This document shows, piece after piece, positions 28,530 through 44,186 of a DNA stretch of 64,000 nucleotides (position 1 is the first letter of the stretch; each line of letters begins with the position of its first letter). The notes beneath the pieces are model-generated. The model did not search any database, had not been told where the DNA came from, and saw only the letters and a program-made list of their open reading frames with translations. The stretch comes from Candidatus Omnitrophota bacterium (lineage in GTDB: Bacteria; Omnitrophota; Gorgyraeia; Zapsychrales; Aceulaceae): assembly GCA_029564765.1 (NCBI GenBank), contig JAKQPK010000055.1, positions 5,255 to 69,254 on the forward strand, written 5' to 3'. Made by a program: the position numbers and the translations under genes.

Positions 28530-31500
28530 CTAATTCTTGCAGAACACCCCGGAATCAGCCGAAACTCCCGGGTCGATATTGCTGATCAAACGTAAAACCA
28601 TGTTACAGTTGGCTCCCGCCGGAACACTCCAAACATACCCCAGCGGAGCATTCGGCGCCGGAGTTCCTGCGCTTGAGTCAGTAGTGATGGTATCTGGAAA
28701 AGTCGCGCCGCCATCTGATGAAAGTTTAATGGTCATATACGGCCCTACCCCGCTGACCGTCCATGTGATCTCATAAAAGCCAGAGATCGTGTCTCCAGCT
28801 GAAGGCGCTGTCACCGCTATGCTCGCACCACCGCCACTCGCGATCGTAAAGTTGCTGTCAGATGTGTCATACACGCTCGCGTCAGACGCATCGGAGATTC
28901 GCACGCGCACCATCGAACTCGGATCATTGGCAACAGTCCACGTATAACTGCCGCTTGAGGCGGAGGTTGACGCGATGATCGTATTCGGATAGGAAGCCCC
29001 ACTGTTAGTTGAGTATTCGATCTTCACATTCGAAACGGAACCACTCGTCGTCCAGGTGATGTTTTTTGAGGATGAGACATTCCAGGACTCGCCGCCATTA
29101 GGGCTCGTCAATGTCACGCTATTGGTGGCTGCCGTAACACCGCCCGCATCCAGGATAGTGCCAGCCCCGGGCTGTGTTGGATTGCGCTCCGCAGCCGCGG
29201 TCCTGATCTGATCGACCACGCTCGCGCTCAGCCCACTTGCCTGGGCGATCTGGGGCGACAGGGTCGCATAAATAAGATTGCCGCGCAGATTCTGGATCTT
29301 CATCTGGCCATCTTCCATCACAAAAATCATGGTCGTATTGCCGCTCGTCTTTTGCTGCAGACCCGTTTTTCGGGGAGTCTGGTCTTTATCCCATTTTGTT
29401 TCCGCGATGTAGGCATTGCCGCGTTTTTCAATACGATTGATATAGATCGTGAGGCGGATATCGGTGAACATGTCAAAATCGAACCGCACACCTTCTTCGA
29501 GGAAGCCCTTGTTCCCTAAATAAGACCTTGAAATAAGCTGAGCGAACGCTGACGGATCTTTTTTCTCATAAGTTTCAGCCAGTTGCTTGATGCTCTGTGC
29601 GACCATTTGTTGCACATTAAGATCGCGATAAATGATATTCAGATTAGGGAATAAAGGAATGGTCAGCTCATCGGCGAGCGTACTGCGGATCTTGAGCACA
29701 GGATTATACGTTTTATCCGGGATCATGGTGATCGTGCTCATGATATCCGCCCTCAAAGGCAATTCGGCCCACGTCCGGCCGCCATCCTCGGAAAAAAGAA
29801 TGCGGTCCAGCCTATCAATGCTATTCAATCGGGCCGTGATCTCGATCTCTCCCTGCTTGAGATCATCCGGCAGCAAAATAAGTTCCCCGAACATCATAGG
29901 GATCGCCCGGCTGTTGATCCGGGCATTAAAGACCTGATACGTCTGAGATGTGAAATTTCGCTCTTCGCGCAAGCGCTGTGCCTCGGCACTCTTGCGGGCG
30001 GCAGCCTCTTCTTGCTCGCGCTGGGAATCATCTTCTGCTTTTTTAAGAGCCCACTCTTTTTCCTGCTTTTCAATATCCTTTTTTGCCTTTTCAATAGCCA
30101 GATCAACTTCCTGTTCTAGCTCAGTCCAGTCCTTAATAACTTTCTCGGTCTTTTCGGTCTTAACCCACCCGACGTACACACTCAAGTTGCTGCGCAGTGT
30201 CTGGGTCTTGAATGTCTCAAGATTTTCCAGCTTTTCCTTGTACCAACCATGCTGTTCAATGGACTTGAATCGTTTCCTCGCGTCATCCAGATTCTTCTGT
30301 GCCCGAACGATAGAAGCATCAAATTCTTTCTGAACAATCGCATAGCGCTCTTCATAAAGAGCAATGCGTGCCGGAATAGTTTTCAGCCCGTTGATCATGG
30401 TCTTGGCCTTATCATTGAACCCGCCATGGTATTTAATAGACTTATTGATTCCTGAAAAAAGCTTTTCCATTTGGGCAACAAGAGCGGAAGACTCAGCCCA
30501 GGTTTCTTTCAATTGCGCCAGGTATTGCACACCTTTGCTCTTTTCCGGCTCAACGCTCATAAAGCCAGCCGCGCCGTCACCTCGGAACAATTGCAACACA
30601 TGCTCTGCTTCCTTTTGCATCGTTCTCTCGAGCACTGAACTGAGCACCGGAGAATCCGAAATTCCGGTCATAAGCCTGTTCAATGTCAGGGCCATGCGGT
30701 CAACGGAATCATAAAAGTCCATCTCAGTGATGAGCCTGTTAATAAGTTGCAGCGATTTGTCACTCTGCGCCAAGCCATCCGCTAACCCCATATCTTTCAA
30801 GAAAATTCCAGTATCTTCAGCGGAAGATATTATTGGAATATTCGCAATGATGCGCCGATAACCCCCGGCAAGAACGCCGTCGCCCTGTACCTTGCCCAAT
30901 ATTTTCAAAATAGCCGGAGAGGCAACATCTTTCAACATGAGCTCATATCTATACCCAGGCTTTTTCTCTATGACCTGCAGACTTTTGGGTACAGTGGCCT
31001 CAAATTTTCTGATCAGGGCCTGTACGGAAGTTTCATAATTTTCATACGCCTTCTTCGCCAATGATATTATTTCAGGATAAAGCTCTTTGTTCTTCTGCAG
31101 GTCATCCTTGATCTGCTTCAGAGACTCCATTGATCTGATGGCGTCACCGGGATTGTGGAACATGAAAAACTGCTCTTTGTGCTGCGTCCAAGCATCCACC
31201 TCTTGGGTACGATCAACAATACCGCCCGCGATGCTCTGATATGCCGTCATATCCTCCTTAAAAGCGGCCTCCATCCGAATGATATCCGTTGCTATTTCCT
31301 CCGTCAATTTATCCAGCGTGGCGCTCATGGTCATCACACGATCCTTGACCTCGAACAGAACGACCTGCTCTTCTTTGGCAAGGATATCAGCATCCTGCCT
31401 GTGCCCATTGCCAAAAACATAACTAATATTGGCGTAAGGAAAGGTCATAGCTGACCAAGCCTGATTAATACGGTGGTATTCAGCATAAAGTGCCTCACGC

Positions 31501-32915
31501 TCGGCCGGCGAAAGGTAAGCGCGATCCTTAGCCCTGACAGCATCATACTGAGGGCGATAAATGGCTGCTGCTTGAGCGGACACTTTTTCTCCCTCTTTGA
31601 TCAGATCCTGGATTTTATTCCAGGAATCCTCTAGAGCTTTCTTGCGCACTTCCTGATAACGCTCTATGCCCGCCTCAACCTCCTTGACATCATATCCGTC
31701 AGTGCCAGCCTCTTTAAATGGATCGAACGCATCACGCAAGGCATTGAGAACGCCCTGACGATCAATAGCACAGCTTTCATACTTGAACACCGGGCTTGCC
31801 CGCGCATATAACGCATCGTTACGATTAGCGATCTCTTGCGCCTCGTCGACGACCTCTTTGTAGTCCTCTTTCTTATATTCATACACTTTCGATTTAAAAC
31901 TATCGATAGCGGCAAGAACCGGCGAAGCATCCTTACCGGCAGTGTCGATCGCGCCCTGAACGCCACTGGCAGCTGCCTTGGCATCACTGTCGAGCGCTTC
32001 GAGCTTGGCGCGGACCTGTTGTTCGATCTCGATCCTTTTCTGGATCTCGGACTTCATCTTTTCAAGCGCGGCAATAATGGCCGCCTTCATATTATCGCCT
32101 TCATTGTCCTTACCCTTTAGATACCAGCCGCTGTACGCCAGCTGCTCATCCCATTCCTTTTGCACATAGCTTGGGATATCCGTCGCCATGATCCAGTCCT
32201 TAAACGCCTTGGGATTTGATCGTGGATTGCGTCCATCGAGGATCACATTCATTTTGGATTCCAGCGCCGTATCGAACGCATAGCCCACCACATAATTCCC
32301 GAGGGCCTCGACCGCAGCCTGCGCCAGGCGATAATAACCCCAACCGGGAATGAAATATTCCATGACCTTATCGCCGATCTGCTTGCCCAGTTCGCGGCAG
32401 CCTTCCTCAGCGCCCTTGGTGCTCCATGTCGAATACACATTCCATGCAATTTCGGCAGAAGCGATGCCGGCCTTCACGCCGTTCATTTTCGTATCAAGCT
32501 TGGATTTGATATCAATATCTGCCGCTGACCAGACTGCGCTCACGGCCTTGCCATCAACGATCGCCTGATGCATCATGGAAGGCACGGCGGCCTTGAAAAG
32601 ATCGGCCCGCGCTCTTGCCTGGATATAATTGAGCATCTTGTCCTTAACAGCGTCCTTGGCTCGGGACGCGGTCTCTTCCCAAACACGCTCTTTACCCTGC
32701 TTGAGGATATACTCCAGCTTCTGCTCAGTGGTCATGCTGTTCATGGCCGTGATATCTTTAACGAAGTTCGTATAGGAGGTGATCAGCGCTTTGGCAGCCT
32801 TGCCTGTGGCCGTCTCTTCAAACGGAGCATCTTTCGCCCAAAGCGGCTGGCCCGAACAAAGGGACAAGATCGTTACGCATGTGGTCAAGAACAGGATTTT
32901 TTTCATATGTCTCAC
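28530..32915 (-). CDS. giant (1,461 aa) secreted surface protein with coiled-coil-rich body and two C-terminal S/T-rich Ig-like repeats
   Basis: Signal peptide MRHMKKILFLTTCVTILSLCSGQPLWA. Long helical/coiled-coil segments. C-terminal tandem repeats of about 95 aa (SPNGGESWNV…ITWTTSG…VKIEYSTNSGASY…GSYTWTV…VRVRI, then APSAGDTISGFYEITWTVSG…IKLSSDGGATFPDTI…GYVWSVPAG…MVLRLI). No recognisable export-class motif. Confidence 0.7.
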   Translation of the reverse strand: MRHMKKILFLTTCVTILSLCSGQPLWAKDAPFEETATGKAAKALITSYTNFVKDITAMNSMTTEQKLEYILKQGKERVWEETASRAKDAVKDKMLNYIQARARADLFKAAVPSMMHQAIVDGKAVSAVWSAADIDIKSKLDTKMNGVKAGIASAEIAWNVYSTWSTKGAEEGCRELGKQIGDKVMEYFIPGWGYYRLAQAAVEALGNYVVGYAFDTALESKMNVILDGRNPRSNPKAFKDWIMATDIPSYVQKEWDEQLAYSGWYLKGKDNEGDNMKAAIIAALEKMKSEIQKRIEIEQQVRAKLEALDSDAKAAASGVQGAIDTAGKDASPVLAAIDSFKSKVYEYKKEDYKEVVDEAQEIANRNDALYARASPVFKYESCAIDRQGVLNALRDAFDPFKEAGTDGYDVKEVEAGIERYQEVRKKALEDSWNKIQDLIKEGEKVSAQAAAIYRPQYDAVRAKDRAYLSPAEREALYAEYHRINQAWSAMTFPYANISYVFGNGHRQDADILAKEEQVVLFEVKDRVMTMSATLDKLTEEIATDIIRMEAAFKEDMTAYQSIAGGIVDRTQEVDAWTQHKEQFFMFHNPGDAIRSMESLKQIKDDLQKNKELYPEIISLAKKAYENYETSVQALIRKFEATVPKSLQVIEKKPGYRYELMLKDVASPAILKILGKVQGDGVLAGGYRRIIANIPIISSAEDTGIFLKDMGLADGLAQSDKSLQLINRLITEMDFYDSVDRMALTLNRLMTGISDSPVLSSVLERTMQKEAEHVLQLFRGDGAAGFMSVEPEKSKGVQYLAQLKETWAESSALVAQMEKLFSGINKSIKYHGGFNDKAKTMINGLKTIPARIALYEERYAIVQKEFDASIVRAQKNLDDARKRFKSIEQHGWYKEKLENLETFKTQTLRSNLSVYVGWVKTEKTEKVIKDWTELEQEVDLAIEKAKKDIEKQEKEWALKKAEDDSQREQEEAAARKSAEAQRLREERNFTSQTYQVFNARINSRAIPMMFGELILLPDDLKQGEIEITARLNSIDRLDRILFSEDGGRTWAELPLRADIMSTITMIPDKTYNPVLKIRSTLADELTIPLFPNLNIIYRDLNVQQMVAQSIKQLAETYEKKDPSAFAQLISRSYLGNKGFLEEGVRFDFDMFTDIRLTIYINRIEKRGNAYIAETKWDKDQTPRKTGLQQKTSGNTTMIFVMEDGQMKIQNLRGNLIYATLSPQIAQASGLSASVVDQIRTAAAERNPTQPGAGTILDAGGVTAATNSVTLTSPNGGESWNVSSSKNITWTTSGSVSNVKIEYSTNSGASYPNTIIASTSASSGSYTWTVANDPSSMVRVRISDASDASVYDTSDSNFTIASGGGASIAVTAPSAGDTISGFYEITWTVSGVGPYMTIKLSSDGGATFPDTITTDSSAGTPAPNAPLGYVWSVPAGANCNMVLRLISNIDPGVSADSGVFCKN

Positions 32916-32930
32916 ATAAAGATTAATTGA

Positions 32931-33392
32931 TTAAAAAGGATTATTGCCGCTAATCTGATATAAAAGCCAATTGCCATCATCCTGGTGTTTGAATACGACT
33001 TCCGCTTCGCCTTTGGAAAGGACGGCTTCTGTGGCGCCCTGGGGCTGTGCACGCTTCTCCCAATTAAACCGCGCCGACAACGTCTTTTTTCCGGCATCGA
33101 AAAACGCCTGGTTAATGAAGTAGTTAAGCTCAAGCACCTTCCCGGCATTGACATTACGGTCGATCTGATCGATAAGCTTATCGCGTAACGGCGCATCCTG
33201 GGCGATGTTCATCAGAAACATATCTTTGAAATAATTCTGGTAGGCCAATACTATCCCGGCGATCAACTTGTTGGTCAGAACAAATGCCTCATCCGCCTGC
33301 GGGGCTTCAGCCTGCGGCCGAACTGCATCCTTAGCATGGCCGTATCCGGCAAGAAAAAAAAGGCTCAGTATCAAAACGAATATTTTCTTCAT
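32931..33392 (-). CDS. small secreted/periplasmic protein (possible NTF2-like fold)
   Basis: 153 aa; signal peptide; the segment LELNYFINQAFFDAGKKTLSARFNWEKR resembles LTIYINRIEKRGNAYIAETKWDKD inside the giant protein. Confidence 0.45.
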   Translation of the reverse strand: MKKIFVLILSLFFLAGYGHAKDAVRPQAEAPQADEAFVLTNKLIAGIVLAYQNYFKDMFLMNIAQDAPLRDKLIDQIDRNVNAGKVLELNYFINQAFFDAGKKTLSARFNWEKRAQPQGATEAVLSKGEAEVVFKHQDDGNWLLYQISGNNPF

Positions 33393-33409
33393 GGCTCTCT
33401 TTTCTTTAG

Positions 33410-35155
33410 TTAAAAGTTGGATACGAATTTTGCGATAACGCGCTGTTCATTATACGTTTGATTTCCGTCCTCATGGACATAGCGATTGCGTTCAGCGCGT
33501 ACAATAAAGCGCGTCGCATGTTTTTTATTGATCAGATAATCAAATTCCGAGAACGTGCGGTTATTAAAATAATCCGTCCCAGGCTTTGACCTGTTGCTAT
33601 CGGCAAGAGTATTGCCCAGGCGAATAGTGAAACGCTGTGACGCCTCATAGGTCGCGTTTAACCCAAGATTGAAATTAATGTCCTTCTTCTGTGAGGTCTT
33701 GGTAGAGCGCAGATCCAGGGCTGGATCCAACGAACAGTAAAACCTCCGGCCGAAAAGTTTATAGTCTTTGGCAAAATTCAAGCCGACCCGATGAAAATAA
33801 TCCGAAGCCGTTCTATTGGCTTTATCTGTAAAGGCACGATATTCGTAATTAGCCCCAACGCTGGCACTGCCGATCGTATCATTAACAGAAAAACCGCCAG
33901 TACGTGTAACACCGCTGGCCGTGTTGCCCGGATCATCGGATGATCTGATCTGATAATTGACGTACGGCCGAAAAGAAAAGCTGGTCCGGGACGCGAATGG
34001 ACGCGATGCCCAGACAACATACTTTTCATCATTAATAGTGCGCTTTGTAAGCGAACTCCCCCTTAAATGGTCCCAGTAATAATTCTCGGTAAGGCTCAGC
34101 GTGTTGCTGGCATTGAGAGCGATGTCGAATGTCACCTGATGTTGGACCATATCCGGGGAGGCAGAGCCAACATCTGTGTAAAATTTCGGCTGAACGTAAT
34201 TATAAAGGTAGCGGGTCTGGATCTTGCCCATATTAAGTGTCGGTTGCAAACGCACAGCATAAGCTTCTTCAGAGTTCTTATCAGCCTCAAGATCAGGTGC
34301 ATGTTCACTGCGGGCAATCTCATAATTCATGGAGAGATACTTTTGCAAGGAAAGCGCGCCATCAATACTTGTCACATGATTACGGATCTGCTTGGAGTTG
34401 GAGGTGCGTTCAAGTGTCGAAGAATCATCCTGGGTAGTCACATGCTGCAGACCAACCCTAAAATTTGAAAAGACAGAGGAATCACGAAAAAAATTTTGAT
34501 CCATCTTGAATCCAAAGATATTCCGTTGAAACTTCTCTGTCGCAACGTCCGCTCCGTAAGCGCGCGCGATAACACCTTTATACCTCTGATCCTCCGACGG
34601 ATTGGTCTCAAAGCTTAGCCCTTCGAGAGAAGTCCCAAGCGTGAACTGACTGAACTCCGCATAAGAATCAGCAAATTCCACAATATTTTTTGGATTATAA
34701 ATTTTCGTAGATATTTGTTTCATCCGGACATCCCCACGCTGCTCGATGCGGTTATTGTCGGTTTTGCGAAGAAATATCTGCCCTTCAAAATTATAGTCTT
34801 TGGGAAGCTTTGCGCCAATATTAAGTCGCAGTTCAGTAAGATAATCCGTTCCCCTGCGAAGAAATGACTTGGATGTATTGCCCGAAATATTGTTCCAGGA
34901 TATTTCCTGAGCAATGTTCCCGGTGATGCGTCCGGAACGATCATTCAGCTCTCGCCCAGATGTAAAATCAAAAAGATCGTGGAAACGTTGTTTGAGGGAA
35001 TAAGAAGGATTGACCACGGCCGATGAAGCGGCTGCACCACTTAAATAAAAAACCTCAGCCGCGTGCGCTGAAGACGAAATAAATGAGCTTATAATAATAA
35101 ACCCAAAAAAAATCCTTAGGTGTGACCTGTTAAAAAGAATCATGTTAAATTCCAC
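33410..35155 (-). CDS. outer-membrane beta-barrel protein (unknown family)
   Basis: 581 aa; signal peptide; rich in Tyr/Asn/Ser/Thr/Gly with alternating hydrophobic pattern; C-terminus ...RVIAKFVSNF ends in Phe (OMP beta-signal). Confidence 0.55.
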   Translation of the reverse strand: MEFNMILFNRSHLRIFFGFIIISSFISSSAHAAEVFYLSGAAASSAVVNPSYSLKQRFHDLFDFTSGRELNDRSGRITGNIAQEISWNNISGNTSKSFLRRGTDYLTELRLNIGAKLPKDYNFEGQIFLRKTDNNRIEQRGDVRMKQISTKIYNPKNIVEFADSYAEFSQFTLGTSLEGLSFETNPSEDQRYKGVIARAYGADVATEKFQRNIFGFKMDQNFFRDSSVFSNFRVGLQHVTTQDDSSTLERTSNSKQIRNHVTSIDGALSLQKYLSMNYEIARSEHAPDLEADKNSEEAYAVRLQPTLNMGKIQTRYLYNYVQPKFYTDVGSASPDMVQHQVTFDIALNASNTLSLTENYYWDHLRGSSLTKRTINDEKYVVWASRPFASRTSFSFRPYVNYQIRSSDDPGNTASGVTRTGGFSVNDTIGSASVGANYEYRAFTDKANRTASDYFHRVGLNFAKDYKLFGRRFYCSLDPALDLRSTKTSQKKDINFNLGLNATYEASQRFTIRLGNTLADSNRSKPGTDYFNNRTFSEFDYLINKKHATRFIVRAERNRYVHEDGNQTYNEQRVIAKFVSNF

Positions 35156-35354: not shown

Positions 35355-35431
35355 TGGTGGCGGCGAGTGGATTTAAACCACTGACCAATCGGGTATGAAC
35401 CGAGTGCTCTATCGGGCTGAGCTACGCCGCC
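35355..35431 (-). tRNA. tRNA with CAU anticodon (Met, or Ile2 if lysidinylated); atypical D- and T-loops
   Basis: RC = GGCGGCGTAGCTCAGCCCGATAGAGCACTCGGTTCATACCCGATTGGTCAGTGGTTTAAATCCACTCGCCGCCACCA. Good acceptor, anticodon and T stems; anticodon loop UUCAUAC. D-loop lacks G18G19 and T-loop is TTTAAAT (no C56). Confidence 0.7.
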
Positions 35432-35487: not shown

Positions 35488-35790
35488 TTACAAATGATAA
35501 AAAATGATATAGAGAAACAAGATCACGACAGCCGCTGAAATAATGTAAAAATCATTGAAGTAAAAGAAGTCTTTGATGCGTTCGTTGGAAGTGTATTCGA
35601 ATTGGGTGTTTTCCGCCGCGACAGTTCCCCCGTTTTTGATACCCATCAGGTCATTGCGCTTGAAGCGAATGAATTGTCCTGCGATGCGATACGATTGGAG
35701 CTTGCCTTGTTCGACAAGCTCCATAATTTTCTTTTCAGATACTTTTAGGATCTGCGCGGCTTCGCGCACAGAAATAAATTGGTCAGACAT
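35488..35790 (-). CDS. excisionase-type HTH (HTH_17-like) DNA-binding protein with C-terminal transmembrane anchor
   Basis: N-terminal ISVREAAQILKVSEKKIMELVEQGKLQSYRIAGQFIRFKRNDL fits the excisionase/MerR-like HTH; C-terminal hydrophobic helix FYIISAAVVILFLYIIFY. Confidence 0.6.
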   Translation of the reverse strand: MSDQFISVREAAQILKVSEKKIMELVEQGKLQSYRIAGQFIRFKRNDLMGIKNGGTVAAENTQFEYTSNERIKDFFYFNDFYIISAAVVILFLYIIFYHL

Positions 35791-35810
35791 AGTATTGACG
35801 TTAAGATTTT

Positions 35811-36332
35811 TTACCCTTTAGCTTTTTCAAGCGTTATCCAGTGATCGATCTTTGCCCGGTCAAATTTCCAGGCATCATCGGTTTTAATCCCGGGAAGCGT
35901 ACCTGCGTTGGCCATTTCCACGACCGATGAAATATCAAGCTCAAGATATCGAGCTGTTTCTTCCAGGGAAAGCTGTTCGTTGAGCATGCGGCATTGGCCT
36001 TCAAAAATAGCGCCTTCTACAATGTTCAGCTTGGGCGTTGAAATATTACCCATGAGCTCCGCGGAAGGCATTAATACTAACATCTTTGAAGCAAGGACAT
36101 CACCTTGGATCTTTCCTGCTACGATAACGTTCTCACCGGTGATCCTGGCCTCAACTCGAGCGGTTTCTCCAACAGTCAGCGTTCCTTTTGTTTCCAGTGA
36201 CCCAACAAAAAGTCCATTGATGCGCAGATTAACAGGGTCACTAAAAGAAAGGGTTCCTTTCATTTCAGCGTTTATCTCAATGAGTTTTTGTTCTGCTTCG
36301 TTCTTGCCTCGTCGGTCGCGTAAAGCCATCAT
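35811..36332 (-). CDS. bactofilin fused to a C-terminal excisionase-type HTH domain
   Basis: Bactofilin beta-helical repeat pattern (LTVGETARVEARITGENVIVAGKIQGDVLASKMLVLMPSAELMGNISTPKLNIVEGAIFEG), followed by LSLEETARYLELDISSVVEMANAGTLPGIKTDDAWKFDRAKIDHWI (HTH_17-like). Confidence 0.7.
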   Translation of the reverse strand: MMALRDRRGKNEAEQKLIEINAEMKGTLSFSDPVNLRINGLFVGSLETKGTLTVGETARVEARITGENVIVAGKIQGDVLASKMLVLMPSAELMGNISTPKLNIVEGAIFEGQCRMLNEQLSLEETARYLELDISSVVEMANAGTLPGIKTDDAWKFDRAKIDHWITLEKAKG

Positions 36333-36349
36333 ATGCCTCCTTGCCGCGT

Positions 36350-36817
36350 TTATTTTTCTGCCTGATCAGGAAAGATTTTCTCAAGTTTCTTTTCGATCGA
36401 ACGTAGTCCGTATAAAACCCAAAAGACGATAAAGGTCGCGATAAATGCTGCCGTATAATATCCTGCCCCAACGGCCATGCCAATACAAGAAACAACCCAC
36501 ATGCTAGCGGATGTCGTCAAACCACTTACGACATTATCACCGCTACGTATGATCGTCCCCGCGCACAAGAATCCGACACCCGTCACAATAGCAGCGATAA
36601 TGCGCGTCGGATCGGTTTGGTGGACATAACTATGTATATCAGAAACGTAATATGAAGTCAACACGAGTAGCGTAGATCCTACGCCGATAAGGATGTGCGT
36701 GCGAAGCCCCGCCCCTTTGTGACGTAAAAAGCGTTCTGCTCCTATGACACCTGAAAGGATGACCGCTAAAATGATCTTGATGATAATATCGAGGGTCTCC
36801 AGGAAAATTTGCGGCAT
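36350..36817 (-). CDS. MgtC/SapB-family membrane protein
   Basis: 155 aa; AVILSGVIGAERFLRHKGAGLRTHILIGVGS is an MgtC-family signature; four TM helices. Confidence 0.8.
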   Translation of the reverse strand: MPQIFLETLDIIIKIILAVILSGVIGAERFLRHKGAGLRTHILIGVGSTLLVLTSYYVSDIHSYVHQTDPTRIIAAIVTGVGFLCAGTIIRSGDNVVSGLTTSASMWVVSCIGMAVGAGYYTAAFIATFIVFWVLYGLRSIEKKLEKIFPDQAEK

Positions 36818-36830
36818 GGGATCTCTCCTT

Positions 36831-37811
36831 TTATATTGTTTGTTGTTGGATGATATGGAACCCTAACCCAGCGATCATCGAGGCATTGTCTATGCACAAA
36901 CGAAGATCGGGAAAAAAAACTTTTATGCCTTGATCTTGGCCTGCCTGCAAAAGGCGCCTGCGAAGCTCTGAGTTCGCGGCGACCCCACCGCCAACAAGAA
37001 TTGTTCTTGCTTTTTTGCGTTGACAGGCGTCTATCGTTTTCTTGACCAGGACATCAACGACACTTTTTTGGAAGCTGTACGCGATCTTTTTAACTGGAAG
37101 TTTATTGTGATGGTCTTTATGATGATGCGCTAGATAGTAGATAGCGGTTTTGATCCCGCTAAAACTGAAATCGTAACTTCCAGGAAGTTGCGCGCAGGGA
37201 AAAGTAAATTCTGTGTTTTTGCCTTGCTGAGCTAAACGGTCGATCGCAGGGCCTCCAGGATAGCCAAGACCTAGAATGCGTGATACTTTATCGTACGTTT
37301 CCCCTGCCGCGTCATCGCGGGTCTGTCCGATCAACTCGATCGAGCGAAAATTTTTGATGAAAAAAAGGTTGGTGTGCCCTCCAGACACGATCAGCCCGAC
37401 CGCCGGAAGTTCAGGTGTTTGTGGGCGTCCAGATGTCCGCTGAAAGACTAGAAAGTTAGCGTAAATATGGGCCATGATGTGATCGACCTTGACAAGAGGA
37501 ATATTGTGGCTATATGCAAGTCCTTGGGCAAATGAGATCCCCACCAGCAGCGATCCGATAAGTCCAGGACTAGCTGTCACAGCGACGCCATCAAGCTGAG
37601 AGATCTTTTTACGTGCCGTTTTAAGGGCTTCATCGACAACCGTGTGAATAGACTCTAGCTGTTTACGCGAAGCGATCTCTGGGATAATGCCACCATATTT
37701 CTTATGATGTACTAGGCTGGAGGAAACGACATGGGAAAGAATGTCGCGGCCGTTTGCAACGACGGAAGCCGCTGTTTCATCACAGGAAGTTTCAATGCCC
37801 AAAATGATCAT
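36831..37811 (-). CDS. tsaD: tRNA N6-adenosine threonylcarbamoyltransferase
   Basis: MIILGIETSCDETAASVV... Kae1/TsaD N-terminus; 326 aa. Confidence 0.9.
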   Translation of the reverse strand: MIILGIETSCDETAASVVANGRDILSHVVSSSLVHHKKYGGIIPEIASRKQLESIHTVVDEALKTARKKISQLDGVAVTASPGLIGSLLVGISFAQGLAYSHNIPLVKVDHIMAHIYANFLVFQRTSGRPQTPELPAVGLIVSGGHTNLFFIKNFRSIELIGQTRDDAAGETYDKVSRILGLGYPGGPAIDRLAQQGKNTEFTFPCAQLPGSYDFSFSGIKTAIYYLAHHHKDHHNKLPVKKIAYSFQKSVVDVLVKKTIDACQRKKARTILVGGGVAANSELRRRLLQAGQDQGIKVFFPDLRLCIDNASMIAGLGFHIIQQQTI

Positions 37812-43808: not shown

Positions 43809-44186
43809 ATGGCCCCCAACAACGATCCTCATGATGATTCACGCTATTTTCCGCGCTGGGAAGTAGCGAACAAGGTTACCTACAAGCACGAAAATGGTGT
43901 TAATTTTCATGAATGCGTGAGTCACGATATCAGCAATACAGGGCTTTGCATGAGGACATATGAGCGGATCAAGCCTAATCAGAGGCTTTCTATGACCATT
44001 GAGCTTGCCGATGGCGTTTCTATCCAGGTTGGTGGGCGTTCTTTGTGGCAAAAAGATGGTGACAAAGATTTTCTAGTAGGCGTGCGCTTTGAAGATATCA
44101 GCGAGAAAGTCCAGGATATGATCTTTAATTGCGCGTTTGAATCCCATCCCCAGCAGTTCCAGCAAAAGTGGTTTGACGGGGTCTAA
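43809..44186 (+). CDS. PilZ-domain protein (putative c-di-GMP receptor)
   Basis: RxxxR (RYFPRW) and DxSxxG (DISNTG) motifs; 125 aa; one of only three plus-strand genes. Confidence 0.7.
   Translation: MAPNNDPHDDSRYFPRWEVANKVTYKHENGVNFHECVSHDISNTGLCMRTYERIKPNQRLSMTIELADGVSIQVGGRSLWQKDGDKDFLVGVRFEDISEKVQDMIFNCAFESHPQQFQQKWFDGV

What the first reader, a model, noticed from the sequence alone, without database searches (positions are those of the whole stretch)
35488..36332. Bactofilin fused to an excisionase-type HTH, adjacent to a tail-anchored HTH protein, a possible DNA–cytoskeleton–membrane tether
Seen in sequence: the 173-aa product contains a canonical bactofilin beta-helix segment (repeating V/I-x-G-x-V/I-x-G patterns across about 100 aa). 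It is followed by a C-terminal domain LSLEETARYLELDISSVVEMANAGTLPGIKTDDAWKFDRAKIDHWI that fits the excisionase/MerR-like HTH_17 consensus. The next gene, 20 bp downstream, encodes a 100-aa protein. Its N-terminus is a second HTH_17-like domain (ISVREAAQILKVSEKKIMELVEQGKLQSYRIAGQFIRFKRNDL) and its C-terminus is a single hydrophobic helix (tail anchor). Established knowledge: bactofilins form polymeric scaffolds that position proteins, for example ParAB via PadC in Myxococcus. Inference: a direct fusion to a DNA-binding HTH, paired with a membrane-anchored paralogous HTH, would be a minimal system linking DNA to a cytoskeletal scaffold and the membrane. It could serve chromosome or plasmid anchoring or segregation. 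To my knowledge this is not a characterised arrangement.
Basis: partly seen in the sequence, partly recalled or inferred. Interest (0 to 1): 0.65.

Follow-up and report, generated by a model that had tools for sequence, protein, structure and literature searches.

The report
Omnitrophota bactofilin–HTH and membrane partner
A cytoskeletal bactofilin fused to a small helix-turn-helix domain, always followed by a membrane-anchored protein with a related domain, is a real and uncharacterised gene pair conserved across the uncultured phylum Omnitrophota, but the sequences suggest that these domains dock proteins rather than bind DNA.

Summary
The ORF at 36332..35811 (-) is a true bactofilin (Pfam 85.6 bits) with a C-terminal HTH_17 winged helix. 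Twenty bases downstream, 35790..35488 (-) encodes an HTH_17 domain, a conserved aromatic juxtamembrane motif and a C-terminal transmembrane helix.

The pair is not a one-off. At least 542 species-level genomes encode the fusion, and every one that could be identified is Omnitrophota. In 79 of 79 evaluable loci the membrane HTH gene follows directly on the same strand, often with a 4-nt overlap. It sits in a housekeeping operon (gatCAB-ctp-yibQ-tsaD-(mgtC)-pair-tRNA-Met).

The DNA-tether reading is weakened:
- The bactofilin-borne HTH is strongly acidic (net -5 ± 1, n=110).
- In both HTHs the arginine that reads DNA bases in BldC (Arg30) is Asp/Glu in 90-98% of members, and other contact residues are also replaced.

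My best reading is a membrane-associated bactofilin scaffold whose wHTH domains act as protein-docking modules linking it to a dedicated tail-anchored partner. The logic resembles RodZ-MreB or BacR-BacEF. A DNA tether remains possible (about 0.2).

No paper describes this architecture. I rate it a new variant of a known kind, of moderate interest.

The parts
35811..36332 (-). Gene for the bactofilin-wHTH fusion protein (173-aa ORF; probable true start is the second ATG at 36329, giving 172 aa)
   Evidence: ORF list. Pfam Bactofilin + HTH_17. 820 homologues with the same architecture. AF2 pLDDT 87. SD AAGGAGG sits 6 nt before the second ATG.
36306..36329 (-). N-terminal basic/hydrophobic peptide M-A-L-R-D-R-R-G, a possible variant of the bactofilin membrane-targeting sequence
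   Evidence: Family consensus is M-A-[LFIM]-R-x-[RK]-[RK]. 105/110 members have a large hydrophobic residue at position 2-3, with a mean of 2.8 K/R in positions 4-8. The published MTS consensus is MFSKKKK, with F2 and K4/K7 critical (PMC12448750). AF2 pLDDT is below 50 here, so the peptide is predicted disordered.
35985..36284 (-). Bactofilin beta-helix core (residues 17-116), including the invariant F110 at the C-terminal polymerisation face
   Evidence: PF04519 85.6 bits. The profile matches PDB 2n3d and 6ria, with F110 aligned to CcBacA F130 and TtBac F105. Foldseek hits 2n3d/6rib. Mean pairwise identity is 74% across 66 genomes.
35817..35975 (-). Acidic winged helix-turn-helix (HTH_17/excisionase/BldC-like fold), residues 120-172, joined to the beta-helix with almost no linker
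   Evidence: PF12728 28.1 bits. AF2 secondary structure E120-122, H123-130, H134-143, E149-151, E154-158, H159-172. Foldseek hits BldC 6ama, RdfS 8dgl, Xis 4j2n, RacA 5i44 and CbpM 3ucs. Net charge is -5.05 ± 1.1. The BldC Arg30 position is E139, acidic in 90% of members.
35488..35790 (-). Gene for the 100-aa tail-anchored wHTH protein, the obligate downstream partner
   Evidence: ORF. HTH_17 42 bits and TIGR01764 41.8 bits. 145 homologues of about 100 aa. It lies immediately downstream on the same strand in 79/79 evaluable loci. Median gap is 4.5 nt, and 20/66 pairs overlap by 4 nt.
35632..35778 (-). Cytoplasmic wHTH of the partner protein (residues 5-53)
   Evidence: AF2 model. Foldseek BldC 6ama, TM 0.85, rmsd 1.1-1.4 Å. 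The profile matches Pukovnik Xis 4j2n, E 4.6e-4. Net charge is +2.4 ± 1.4. The recognition-helix face is nearly invariant (E19, K20, K21, M23, D/E24).
35545..35595 (-). Invariant aromatic/acidic juxtamembrane motif Y66-x3-E-R-x-K-D-F-F-Y-F-N-D-F-Y82
   Evidence: Y66, D74, Y77, N79, D80 and Y82 are invariant in 86 homologues. AF2 predicts a helix at 68-78.
35494..35544 (-). C-terminal transmembrane helix (residues 83-99), with only 0-3 residues beyond it
   Evidence: KD19 maximum 2.29 at residues 82-100. AF2 helix 80-99, pLDDT >90.
36350..36817 (-). Context: MgtC-family membrane protein gene, 17 bp upstream. Present at this position in 45 of 80 related loci, so it is not an obligate part of the module.
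   Evidence: PF02308 128.7 bits. Synteny table.
36831..37811 (-). Context: tsaD. The conserved upstream neighbour of the module across the phylum, in the operon gatCAB-ctp-yibQ-like-tsaD.
   Evidence: tblastn synteny. Pfam hits for the neighbouring genes. ORFs.
35355..35431 (-). Context: tRNA-Met(CAT), 56 bp downstream of the pair. Conserved at this position in most related loci.
   Evidence: ARAGORN. A tRNA-Met lies within about 1.1 kb downstream in 28 of 37 loci scanned.

Best explanation
This is a two-gene module that I found only in Omnitrophota, present in most sampled members, and co-transcribed at the end of a housekeeping operon.

Gene 1 encodes a polymer-forming bactofilin. Its N-terminal M-A-L-R-x-R-R peptide probably contacts the membrane. 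Its C-terminus carries a folded, strongly acidic winged-helix domain of the excisionase/BldC fold.

Gene 2 is often translationally coupled to gene 1. It encodes a tail-anchored inner-membrane protein with a paralogous, mildly basic winged helix facing the cytoplasm and an invariant aromatic juxtamembrane motif.

I propose that the two winged helices have been repurposed from DNA binding to protein docking. The bactofilin polymer displays an array of acidic wHTH domains. These bind the cytoplasmic wHTH (or linker) of the tail-anchored partner. This would fix the scaffold to the membrane or cluster the partner along it. The logic is the same as RodZ(HTH)-MreB, PbpC-BacA or BacR-BacEF.

The assembly would then organise an envelope or cell-cycle process in these very small cells.

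Shown: domain identities, predicted folds, conservation, synteny, gene overlap, charge, and loss of DNA-contact residues.
Inferred: polymerisation, membrane binding, the physical interaction of the two proteins, and the cellular role.
For: - Bactofilin identity and an intact polymerisation face. F110 is invariant.
- The strict pairing points to a stoichiometric complex. The partner gene is present in 79/79 evaluable loci. Median gap is 4.5 nt, and 20/66 pairs have 4-nt start/stop overlaps.
- The fused HTH has net charge -5.05 ± 1.1 (n=110). The partner HTH has +2.4.
- The BldC Arg30 position is E/D in both families (90% and 98%). Lys33 becomes N/E, His46 becomes A/F, and Arg47 becomes W/I-L. 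R30A and H46E abolish BldC DNA binding (PMC5859096).
- The exposed 'recognition helix' of the partner is nearly invariant but of mixed character (E19, K20, K21, M23, D24). This fits a conserved protein interface.
- The fold hits include MerR-like wHTHs that act by protein binding: CbpM 3ucs, DafA 9dvi and the PICI protein 6hn7.
- BldC-type wHTHs are known to self-associate head to tail.
- There is precedent for an HTH protein encoded next to bactofilin genes that binds bactofilins and is held at the membrane by them (BacR, PMC13649987).
- There is precedent for a bitopic client that supports bactofilin membrane binding (PbpC, PMC12448750).
- The N-terminal peptide is conserved and MTS-like.
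Against: - No direct evidence for any interaction. I could not run a complex prediction.
- Net charges of the two HTHs do not co-vary in a compensatory way across 66 genomes (Spearman +0.24).
- The partner has no extracytoplasmic domain, so it is unclear what recruiting it achieves.
- The partner's HTH keeps K20, K21, R35, R42 and K44 and is net basic, so non-canonical or non-specific DNA binding is not excluded.
- A folded domain placed directly after the last beta-helix turn might interfere with the C-to-C polymer interface.
- A divergent second clade of the fusion lacks the partner gene, so the fused HTH must have a role that does not require it.
Confidence: 0.4

Rival explanations
1. DNA-cytoskeleton-membrane tether. 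One or both winged helices bind chromosomal DNA. The membrane-bound bactofilin polymer, together with the tail-anchored HTH, then anchors or positions a chromosomal region such as the origin. This would be analogous to RacA-DivIVA or BacNOP-PadC-ParB.
For: - Both domains have the fold of DNA-binding proteins, including the chromosome anchor RacA (5i44), BldC and Xis.
- The partner HTH is net basic (+2.4) and keeps K20, K21, R42 and K44.
- Bactofilins are known to organise ParABS (PMC5703909).
- A divergent Omnitrophota clade of the same fusion sits beside a ParA/MipZ-like ATPase and an actin-like gene. That context is typical of positioning systems that use the nucleoid.
Against: - The bactofilin-borne HTH is strongly acidic (-5, never above -2).
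- The base-reading Arg30 equivalent is Asp/Glu in both families, and the wing His46/Arg47 equivalents are hydrophobic.
- No parS-like or repeated DNA motif was sought or found.
- No ParAB genes lie next to the pair in the window.
Confidence: 0.2
2. BacR-like regulatory switch. The tail-anchored wHTH protein is a membrane-tethered transcription factor or anti-factor. The bactofilin polymer controls its availability by sequestration through the acidic, possibly DNA-mimicking, wHTH. Gene expression would thereby be coupled to the state of the cytoskeleton or envelope.
For: - In B. subtilis, BacR (an HTH protein encoded next to bacE/bacF) binds DNA. The bactofilins bind it, reduce its DNA binding and hold it at the membrane (PMC13649987).
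- An acidic wHTH could compete with DNA for a basic wHTH (charges).
- The adjacent gene arrangement matches.
Against: - No DUF4004 domain is present.
- The partner is permanently membrane-inserted and has no sensor domain.
- The pair lies at the 3' end of a long housekeeping operon with only 13-20 bp gaps, so there is no obvious autoregulated promoter.
- Canonical base-contact residues are missing.
- Charges do not co-vary.
Confidence: 0.12
3. The two proteins do not bind each other and are only neighbours in the operon. The fused wHTH recruits some other, unidentified client to the bactofilin scaffold, for example a cell-wall enzyme, a ParA-like ATPase or a nucleoid protein. The tail-anchored protein acts independently of the scaffold.
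For: - The second clade of the fusion exists without the partner gene.
- There is no charge co-variation.
- Gene order is generally very conserved in this operon, including unrelated genes such as tsaD and tRNA-Met.
Against: - Adjacency holds in 79/79 loci with frequent 4-nt overlaps, whereas mgtC, which lies between tsaD and the pair, is present in only 45/80.
- The two proteins share a paralogous domain and have similar, very high conservation.
Confidence: 0.2
4. Remnant of an integrated mobile element: an excisionase-family gene next to a tRNA gene.
For: The HTH_17/TIGR01764 'excisionase' signature lies directly beside tRNA-Met. There are weak hits to the MAD1 HTH of the MADS defence system.
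Against: - The same arrangement sits in the same housekeeping operon in 79 genomes that share only 53-94% protein identity.
- No integrase is found nearby.
- No two-domain match exists in phage or plasmid collections.
- MAD1 scores are far below the cut-off (38 vs 80 bits).
Confidence: 0.01

Closest known systems
Canonical bactofilins (C. crescentus BacA, PDB 2n3d; T. thermophilus bactofilin, PDB 6ria/6rib)
   Same: Both have a PF04519 beta-helix core and the conserved C-terminal Phe of the polymerisation interface. Both have a short basic/hydrophobic N-terminal peptide. Both are small proteins.
   Different: Canonical bactofilins have short disordered C-terminal tails. This one carries a folded 50-residue wHTH with almost no linker. 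Its N-terminal peptide is MALRxRR rather than MFSKKKK. It also comes with an obligate downstream tail-anchored partner.
BacR (YhbD, DUF4004)-BacE/BacF of Bacillus subtilis (PMC13649987)
   Same: In both, a MerR-like HTH protein is encoded next to bactofilin gene(s). In B. subtilis the bactofilins bind the HTH protein and hold it at the membrane, which may be the logic used here.
   Different: BacR is soluble, about 210 aa, carries DUF4004, is encoded upstream and demonstrably binds DNA. Here the HTH protein is 100 aa, tail-anchored, encoded downstream and lacks key DNA-contact residues. A second HTH is fused to the bactofilin itself.
RodZ-MreB (my own knowledge: van den Ent et al., EMBO J 2010)
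   Same: Both involve a bitopic membrane protein with a cytoplasmic HTH domain. In RodZ that HTH binds a cytoskeletal polymer rather than DNA.
   Different: RodZ has an XRE-type HTH and a periplasmic domain, and its partner is actin-like MreB. There is no homology to the proteins here; the resemblance is functional only.
BldC / excisionase (Xis, RdfS) family of single-domain wHTH proteins (PDB 6ama, 4j2n, 8dgl)
   Same: They share the fold (TM up to 0.85, rmsd 1.1-1.4 Å) and Pfam HTH_17 membership. BldC and Xis oligomerise head to tail, which shows that this fold can self-associate.
   Different: Those proteins are basic and bind DNA through Arg30, His46, Arg47 and Arg48 (BldC numbering). Here Arg30 is Asp/Glu and His46/Arg47 are hydrophobic. 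One domain is strongly acidic. No recombinase is associated.
RacA-DivIVA and BacNOP-PadC-ParAB chromosome anchoring systems
   Same: Each is a polymer or scaffold with a DNA-binding adaptor that tethers the chromosome to a cell site. The RacA wHTH is a structural match (5i44).
   Different: RacA binds GC-rich ram sites using the arginine equivalent to BldC Arg30, which is missing here. PadC is a ParB-like adaptor with no HTH_17 domain. No ParAB genes lie next to the pair in the window.

Membership tests
Bactofilin (PF04519) | Sequence match to the bactofilin domain above the curated threshold | tested here: met
   85.6 bits against a cut-off of 27.9, residues 17-114. The profile matches BacA 2n3d (E 2.8e-9) and the Thermus bactofilin 6ria (E 9.1e-9).
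Bactofilin (PF04519) | Right-handed beta-helix fold | tested here: met
   In the AF2 model, residues 16-116 are all beta with pLDDT 92-98. The top Foldseek hits are 2n3d and 6rib (TM to target 0.63-0.80). This is a prediction only.
Bactofilin (PF04519) | Conserved hydrophobic polymerisation interface (Phe equivalent to TtBac F105 / CcBacA F130) | tested here: met
   F110 is invariant in 110 homologues. It aligns with F105 of 6ria and F130 of 2n3d.
Bactofilin (PF04519) | Nucleotide-independent polymerisation into filaments | not testable with these tools
   Needs purified protein with EM or pelleting. The adjacent folded wHTH could affect the C-terminal interface.
Bactofilin (PF04519) | N-terminal membrane-targeting sequence (consensus MFSKKKK; F2 and K4/K7 critical) | tested here: inconclusive
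   The consensus here is M-A-[LFIM]-R-x-[RK]-[RK]. Its physicochemical pattern resembles the published MTS, but the motif is different (PMC12448750).
HTH_17 / excisionase-family wHTH (PF12728, TIGR01764) | Sequence match above curated thresholds | tested here: met
   Partner protein: PF12728 42 bits (cut-off 27) and TIGR01764 41.8 bits (cut-off 28.8). Fusion protein: PF12728 28.1 bits, just above the cut-off, and TIGR01764 21.3 bits, below it.
HTH_17 / excisionase-family wHTH (PF12728, TIGR01764) | Winged helix fold like Xis/BldC | tested here: met
   Foldseek hits 6ama/6amk BldC, 4j2n Xis and 8dgl RdfS, probability 1.00, rmsd 1.1-2.8 Å.
HTH_17 / excisionase-family wHTH (PF12728, TIGR01764) | DNA-contact residues of the recognition helix and wing (BldC K26, R30, K33, H46, R47, R48) and a basic surface | tested here: not met
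   In both families R30 becomes E/D. K33 becomes N/E, H46 becomes A/F, and R47 becomes W or I/L. The fused domain has net charge -5. Only K26 and R48 equivalents are kept, and only in the partner. I recalled the BldC sequence from memory and checked it against the residue numbers in PMC5859096.
HTH_17 / excisionase-family wHTH (PF12728, TIGR01764) | Functional association with an integrase or recombination module (true excisionases) | tested here: not met
   No integrase lies in the neighbourhood. The position within a housekeeping operon is fixed across 79 genomes.
BacR (DUF4004)-bactofilin pair | DUF4004 (PF13171) domain in the HTH protein | tested here: not met
   No PF13171 hit at E <= 0.1 for either protein.
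BacR (DUF4004)-bactofilin pair | HTH protein physically bound and membrane-recruited by bactofilin | not testable with these tools
   Only the gene adjacency is shown.
MADS defence system MAD1 HTH protein | Match above the equivalog cut-off and presence of the other mad genes | tested here: not met
   38.2 and 26.1 bits against a cut-off of 80. The PADLOC hits are weak (E 9e-4 and 2e-5) and cover the HTH only. The neighbours are housekeeping genes.

The most novel reading that the evidence does not exclude
The pair is a minimal chromosome-membrane anchoring or segregation device specific to Omnitrophota. The tail-anchored wHTH, perhaps together with the bactofilin-borne wHTH as a hetero-oligomer assembled head to tail as in BldC, binds DNA non-canonically. 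The bactofilin polymer would turn many weak contacts into a stable tether of the nucleoid to the membrane of these very small cells.
Probability: 0.2. Interest if true: 0.75.

Novelty: new variant of a known kind. Interest (0 to 1): 0.5.

Why it matters
Bactofilins are widespread scaffolds, and their clients are normally recruited through short disordered tails. This one carries a folded accessory domain and has a dedicated, co-conserved, tail-anchored partner built from the same domain. The core is 74% identical on average across the phylum, so the module appears to be under strong constraint.

It may offer a genetically simple, two-protein way into the cell biology of Omnitrophota, which are mostly uncultured and often very small. 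Both proteins are short (172 and 100 aa) and easy to test in vitro or in a surrogate host.

It may also be a clear case of an excisionase/MerR-type winged helix being reused as a protein-docking module. If the domains do bind DNA after all, it would be the first bactofilin that contacts DNA directly.

Tried and rejected
- Charge co-variation between the two HTH domains across 66 genome-matched pairs, as a test of electrostatic pairing. Spearman was +0.24, so there is no compensatory signal. Mirror-tree-style identity correlations (r 0.49-0.55) were no higher between the two HTHs than with the bactofilin core, so they tell us nothing.
- Mobile-element or excisionase reading. Rejected by synteny and by the absence of an integrase.
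- Defence-system (MADS MAD1) reading. Scores are far below the cut-off and no other mad genes are present.
- MamR/magnetosome link. Only a weak HTH-level hit (E 0.0065, 16.7 bits against a cut-off of 100).
- Search for the fusion outside Omnitrophota. Every full-length relative whose source could be named is Omnitrophota. A few loci carry other record labels: 'uncultured Planctomycetales' (binchicken MAGs), 'uncultured bacterium', 'bacterium' and one 'Lysobacterales'. I read these as placeholder or mis-binned labels. Most metagenomic hits carry no taxonomy, so restriction to the phylum is likely but not proven.
- Foldseek against AFDB50 would have given organisms, but that library was unavailable.
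- Promoter and terminator scans gave no clear private promoter for the pair.
Full report
**1. What is in the sequence**

Two co-oriented ORFs lie on the minus strand: 36332..35811 (173 aa) and 35790..35488 (100 aa). They are 20 bp apart.

First ORF (the fusion):
- It matches Pfam Bactofilin over residues 17-114 (E 2.8e-24, 85.6 bits, cut-off 27.9).
- It matches HTH_17 over residues 121-166 (28.1 bits, cut-off 27).
- An AlphaFold2 model built on 110 homologues has pLDDT 87. It shows an uninterrupted beta-helix (16-116) followed almost without a linker by a winged helix-turn-helix (120-172).
- Foldseek returns the two solved bactofilins (2n3d, 6rib). For the C-terminal domain it returns BldC, RdfS, Pukovnik Xis, RacA, MerR proteins and CbpM.

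Second ORF (the partner):
- It matches HTH_17 (42 bits) and TIGR01764 'excisionase family' (41.8 bits, above the cut-off).
- Its model shows a wHTH (5-53), a linker, a short helix (68-78) and a terminal helix (80-99).
- Hydropathy peaks at 2.29 over residues 82-100. No more than three residues follow the helix, so the protein is tail-anchored.

A profile-profile comparison shows that the two HTHs are homologous (probability 89.5%, E 2e-6).

One detail differs. The Shine-Dalgarno AAGGAGG lies 3 nt before the first ATG and 6 nt before the second, and homologues begin MALR.... The protein probably starts at 36329 and is 172 aa long.

**2. How widespread the pair is**

- The fusion has 820 relatives at 90% clustering. 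The 120 listed all have the same two Pfam domains, and nearly all are 167-182 aa long (range 150-190). Wherever a source gives a name, the organism is Candidatus Omnitrophota/Omnitrophica.
- The 100-aa protein has 145 relatives of 98-103 aa, again all Omnitrophota where named.
- In the 80 best loci, the partner gene lies immediately downstream on the same strand in 79. The 80th contig ends inside the bactofilin gene.
- In 66 cleanly extracted pairs the median intergenic distance is 4.5 nt, and 20 pairs overlap by 4 nt. This is the usual sign of translational coupling.
- Conservation is high. Mean column identity is 70% for the fusion and 65% for the partner. Mean pairwise identity is 74% in the beta-helix core.
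- Against 1.84 billion cluster representatives, only 35 proteins score below E 1e-30, while 22,229 ordinary bactofilins score below 1e-3. The fusion family is compact.
- No plasmid record (0 of 29 hits) covers both domains, and no phage record matches at all.

**3. Genomic context**

The pair closes a long, tightly packed, same-strand housekeeping gene string: gatC-gatA-gatB, an S41 C-terminal processing protease, a YibQ-like divergent polysaccharide deacetylase, tsaD, an MgtC-family membrane protein, then the pair, then tRNA-Met(CAT).

The order ctp-(deacetylase)-tsaD-(mgtC)-pair recurs across the phylum. mgtC is present in 45 of 80 loci. A tRNA-Met follows within about 1.1 kb in 28 of 37 loci scanned. 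No integrase or other mobile-element gene is nearby. The 'excisionase next to a tRNA' reading is therefore rejected.

**4. Is the bactofilin functional?**

The profile aligns the invariant F110 with F105 of the Thermus bactofilin and F130 of Caulobacter BacA. F105 is the residue mutated in the F105R crystal form (entry title). From my own knowledge, these mutations block polymerisation. The core is not degenerate.

The N-terminal tail is predicted disordered but conserved as M-A-[L/F/I/M]-R-x-[R/K]-[R/K]. The published membrane-targeting sequence has the consensus MFSKKKK and relies on a hydrophobic residue at position 2 and basic residues at 4 and 7 (PMC12448750). The Omnitrophota peptide has the same physicochemical pattern but a different motif. 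Direct membrane binding is therefore plausible but untested.

**5. Do the HTH domains bind DNA?**

- The bactofilin-borne HTH has a mean net charge of -5.05 (sd 1.1, range -8 to -2, n=110), with 10.6 acidic and 5.6 basic residues on average in 49 positions. The partner's HTH is +2.4.
- In BldC, DNA is contacted by Lys26, Thr27, Thr29, Arg30, Trp31 and Lys33 of the recognition helix and by His46, Arg47 and Arg48 of the wing. R30A and H46E abolish binding. RacA uses the equivalent arginine (PMC5859096).
- I aligned BldC, Pukovnik Xis and the window and consensus sequences. I recalled the BldC sequence from memory and checked it against the residue numbers in that paper.

| BldC residue | Partner protein | Fusion protein |
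|---|---|---|
| Arg30 | D/E24 (98% acidic) | E139 (90% acidic) |
| Lys33 | Glu | Asn |
| His46 | Phe | Ala/Ser |
| Arg47 | Ile/Leu | Trp |
| Lys26, Arg48 | kept | not kept |

- The HMMER alignment to Xis Gp37 gives the same register.
- The exposed face of the partner's 'recognition helix' is nearly invariant (E19 100%, K20 87%, K21 91%, M23 97%, D/E24 98%). So it is a functional surface, but its mixed acidic, basic and hydrophobic character resembles a protein interface more than a DNA reader.
- The fold hits include wHTH proteins that act through protein contacts: CbpM with the CbpA J-domain (3ucs), DafA (9dvi) and a PICI packaging protein (6hn7).

**6. Most likely mechanism**

I propose a membrane-associated bactofilin polymer that displays an array of acidic wHTH domains. 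These engage the cytoplasmic wHTH or linker of the tail-anchored partner.

There are precedents for the logic:
- RodZ uses an HTH to bind MreB (my own knowledge).
- PbpC is a bitopic client whose cytoplasmic tail binds BacA and can replace its MTS.
- BacR is an HTH protein encoded beside bacE/bacF. The bactofilins bind it, strip it from DNA and hold it at the membrane (PMC13649987).
- BldC-type domains associate head to tail, which offers a structural route to a hetero-association.

The invariant juxtamembrane motif E-R-x-K-D-F-F-Y-F-N-D-F-Y suggests a further specific contact at the membrane interface.

Polymerisation, membrane binding, the interaction between the two proteins and the cellular role are all inferred. 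I put this model at 0.40.

**7. Rival explanations**

- DNA tether (0.20). It is supported by the fold family, by the mildly basic partner HTH and by the known link between bactofilins and ParABS (PMC5703909).
- BacR-like sequestration switch (0.12).
- Neighbours that do not interact, with another client for the fused HTH (0.20). This is supported by a second, divergent Omnitrophota clade of the fusion that lacks the partner gene, and by the absence of compensatory charge co-variation.
- Mobile-element remnant (0.01).

**8. Comparison with known systems, and novelty**

The first protein meets the testable defining features of a bactofilin. Both HTHs belong to HTH_17 by sequence and fold, but they fail the test for DNA-contact residues and have no recombinase association. 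They should not be called excisionases.

Neither protein belongs to the BacR/DUF4004, RodZ or MAD1 families. The resemblance to the first two is functional only.

Full-text searches found no paper combining bactofilin with excisionase (0 hits). The papers combining bactofilin with helix-turn-helix or with Omnitrophota did not describe this architecture. Databases label the proteins 'polymer-forming cytoskeletal protein' or 'excisionase family DNA binding protein'.

I rate it a new variant of a known kind. It is a bactofilin with a new folded accessory domain and a dedicated partner, conserved across a phylum. Interest is moderate (0.5). A cytoskeleton specialist would want to test it, and it is easy to test in vitro. 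The more striking claim, direct DNA binding, is disfavoured by the sequence.

Noticed in passing
L081:5001-5567, L085:3754-4317, L082:179-754 (proteins P0405, P0406, P0410, P0303): A second, divergent clade of bactofilin-HTH_17 fusions (177-203 aa). The one named member is from an Omnitrophica WOR_2 MAG. It has a canonical MTS-like N-terminus (MKFFSQKKR) and an acidic HTH, but no tail-anchored HTH gene downstream. In L081, L085 and L086 it follows a 465-aa ParA/MipZ-like ATPase fused to an AMPK1_CBM (glycogen-binding) domain and two proteins with no Pfam hit. In L081 a Volactin-family actin-like gene is also present. This looks like a cargo-positioning cluster.
   Followed up: partly
L082:5939-6142: A gas-vesicle protein gene (PF00741) lies about 5 kb downstream of a clade-2 bactofilin-HTH gene. 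A histidine kinase, a sigma54 activator and response-regulator genes lie between them.
   Followed up: no
protein P0315 (479 aa) and P0270 (231 aa): These proteins consist of tandem HTH_17 repeats. P0315 has 7 matched stretches and P0270 has 3. They appeared as the nearest non-bactofilin relatives of the fused HTH. Arrays of this domain in one chain fit a domain that works by multimerising.
   Followed up: no
protein P0344 (311 aa): The last turns of the bactofilin plus the HTH (residues 205-311) are preceded by about 200 residues of unrelated sequence. This is either a different fusion or an assembly or gene-calling chimera on a 1 kb contig.
   Followed up: no
window 35355-35431 (-) and loci L001-L080: A tRNA-Met(CAT) gene follows the pair in most Omnitrophota loci (28 of 37 scanned, within about 1.1 kb). 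In the window, a sigma70-like promoter match (35471-35443, minus strand) sits between the partner gene and the tRNA.
   Followed up: partly
window 28530-35155 (-): Downstream of the tRNA lie three apparently exported proteins with no Pfam family above its curated cut-off. They are a 581-aa protein with an N-terminal signal-like segment (no Pfam hit at all), a 153-aa protein with only weak sub-threshold hits, including one to a lipoprotein lipid-attachment site, and a 1461-aa protein. The 1461-aa protein has a long coiled-coil-like middle and Ser/Thr-rich C-terminal repeats, and I did not scan it against Pfam.
   Followed up: no
window 35908-36432 (+): A 174-aa ORF lies antisense to the bactofilin gene. 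It is a shadow ORF with a low-complexity Ser/Pro-rich translation and is not a gene.
   Followed up: no
loci L001, L005-L007 and others; L062: Many of the related MAG records are titled 'uncultured Planctomycetales bacterium' (binchicken assemblies), and one is titled 'Lysobacterales bacterium'. They nevertheless carry the same Omnitrophota-type operon. The titles look like placeholder or mis-binned labels.
   Followed up: no
window 43809-44186 (+): A stand-alone PilZ-domain protein (125 aa) is the only plus-strand gene in an otherwise minus-strand stretch. It lies between a thioesterase-like gene and a gene whose product reads like the rRNA methyltransferase KsgA/RsmA (identified by eye only, not scanned).
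   Followed up: no
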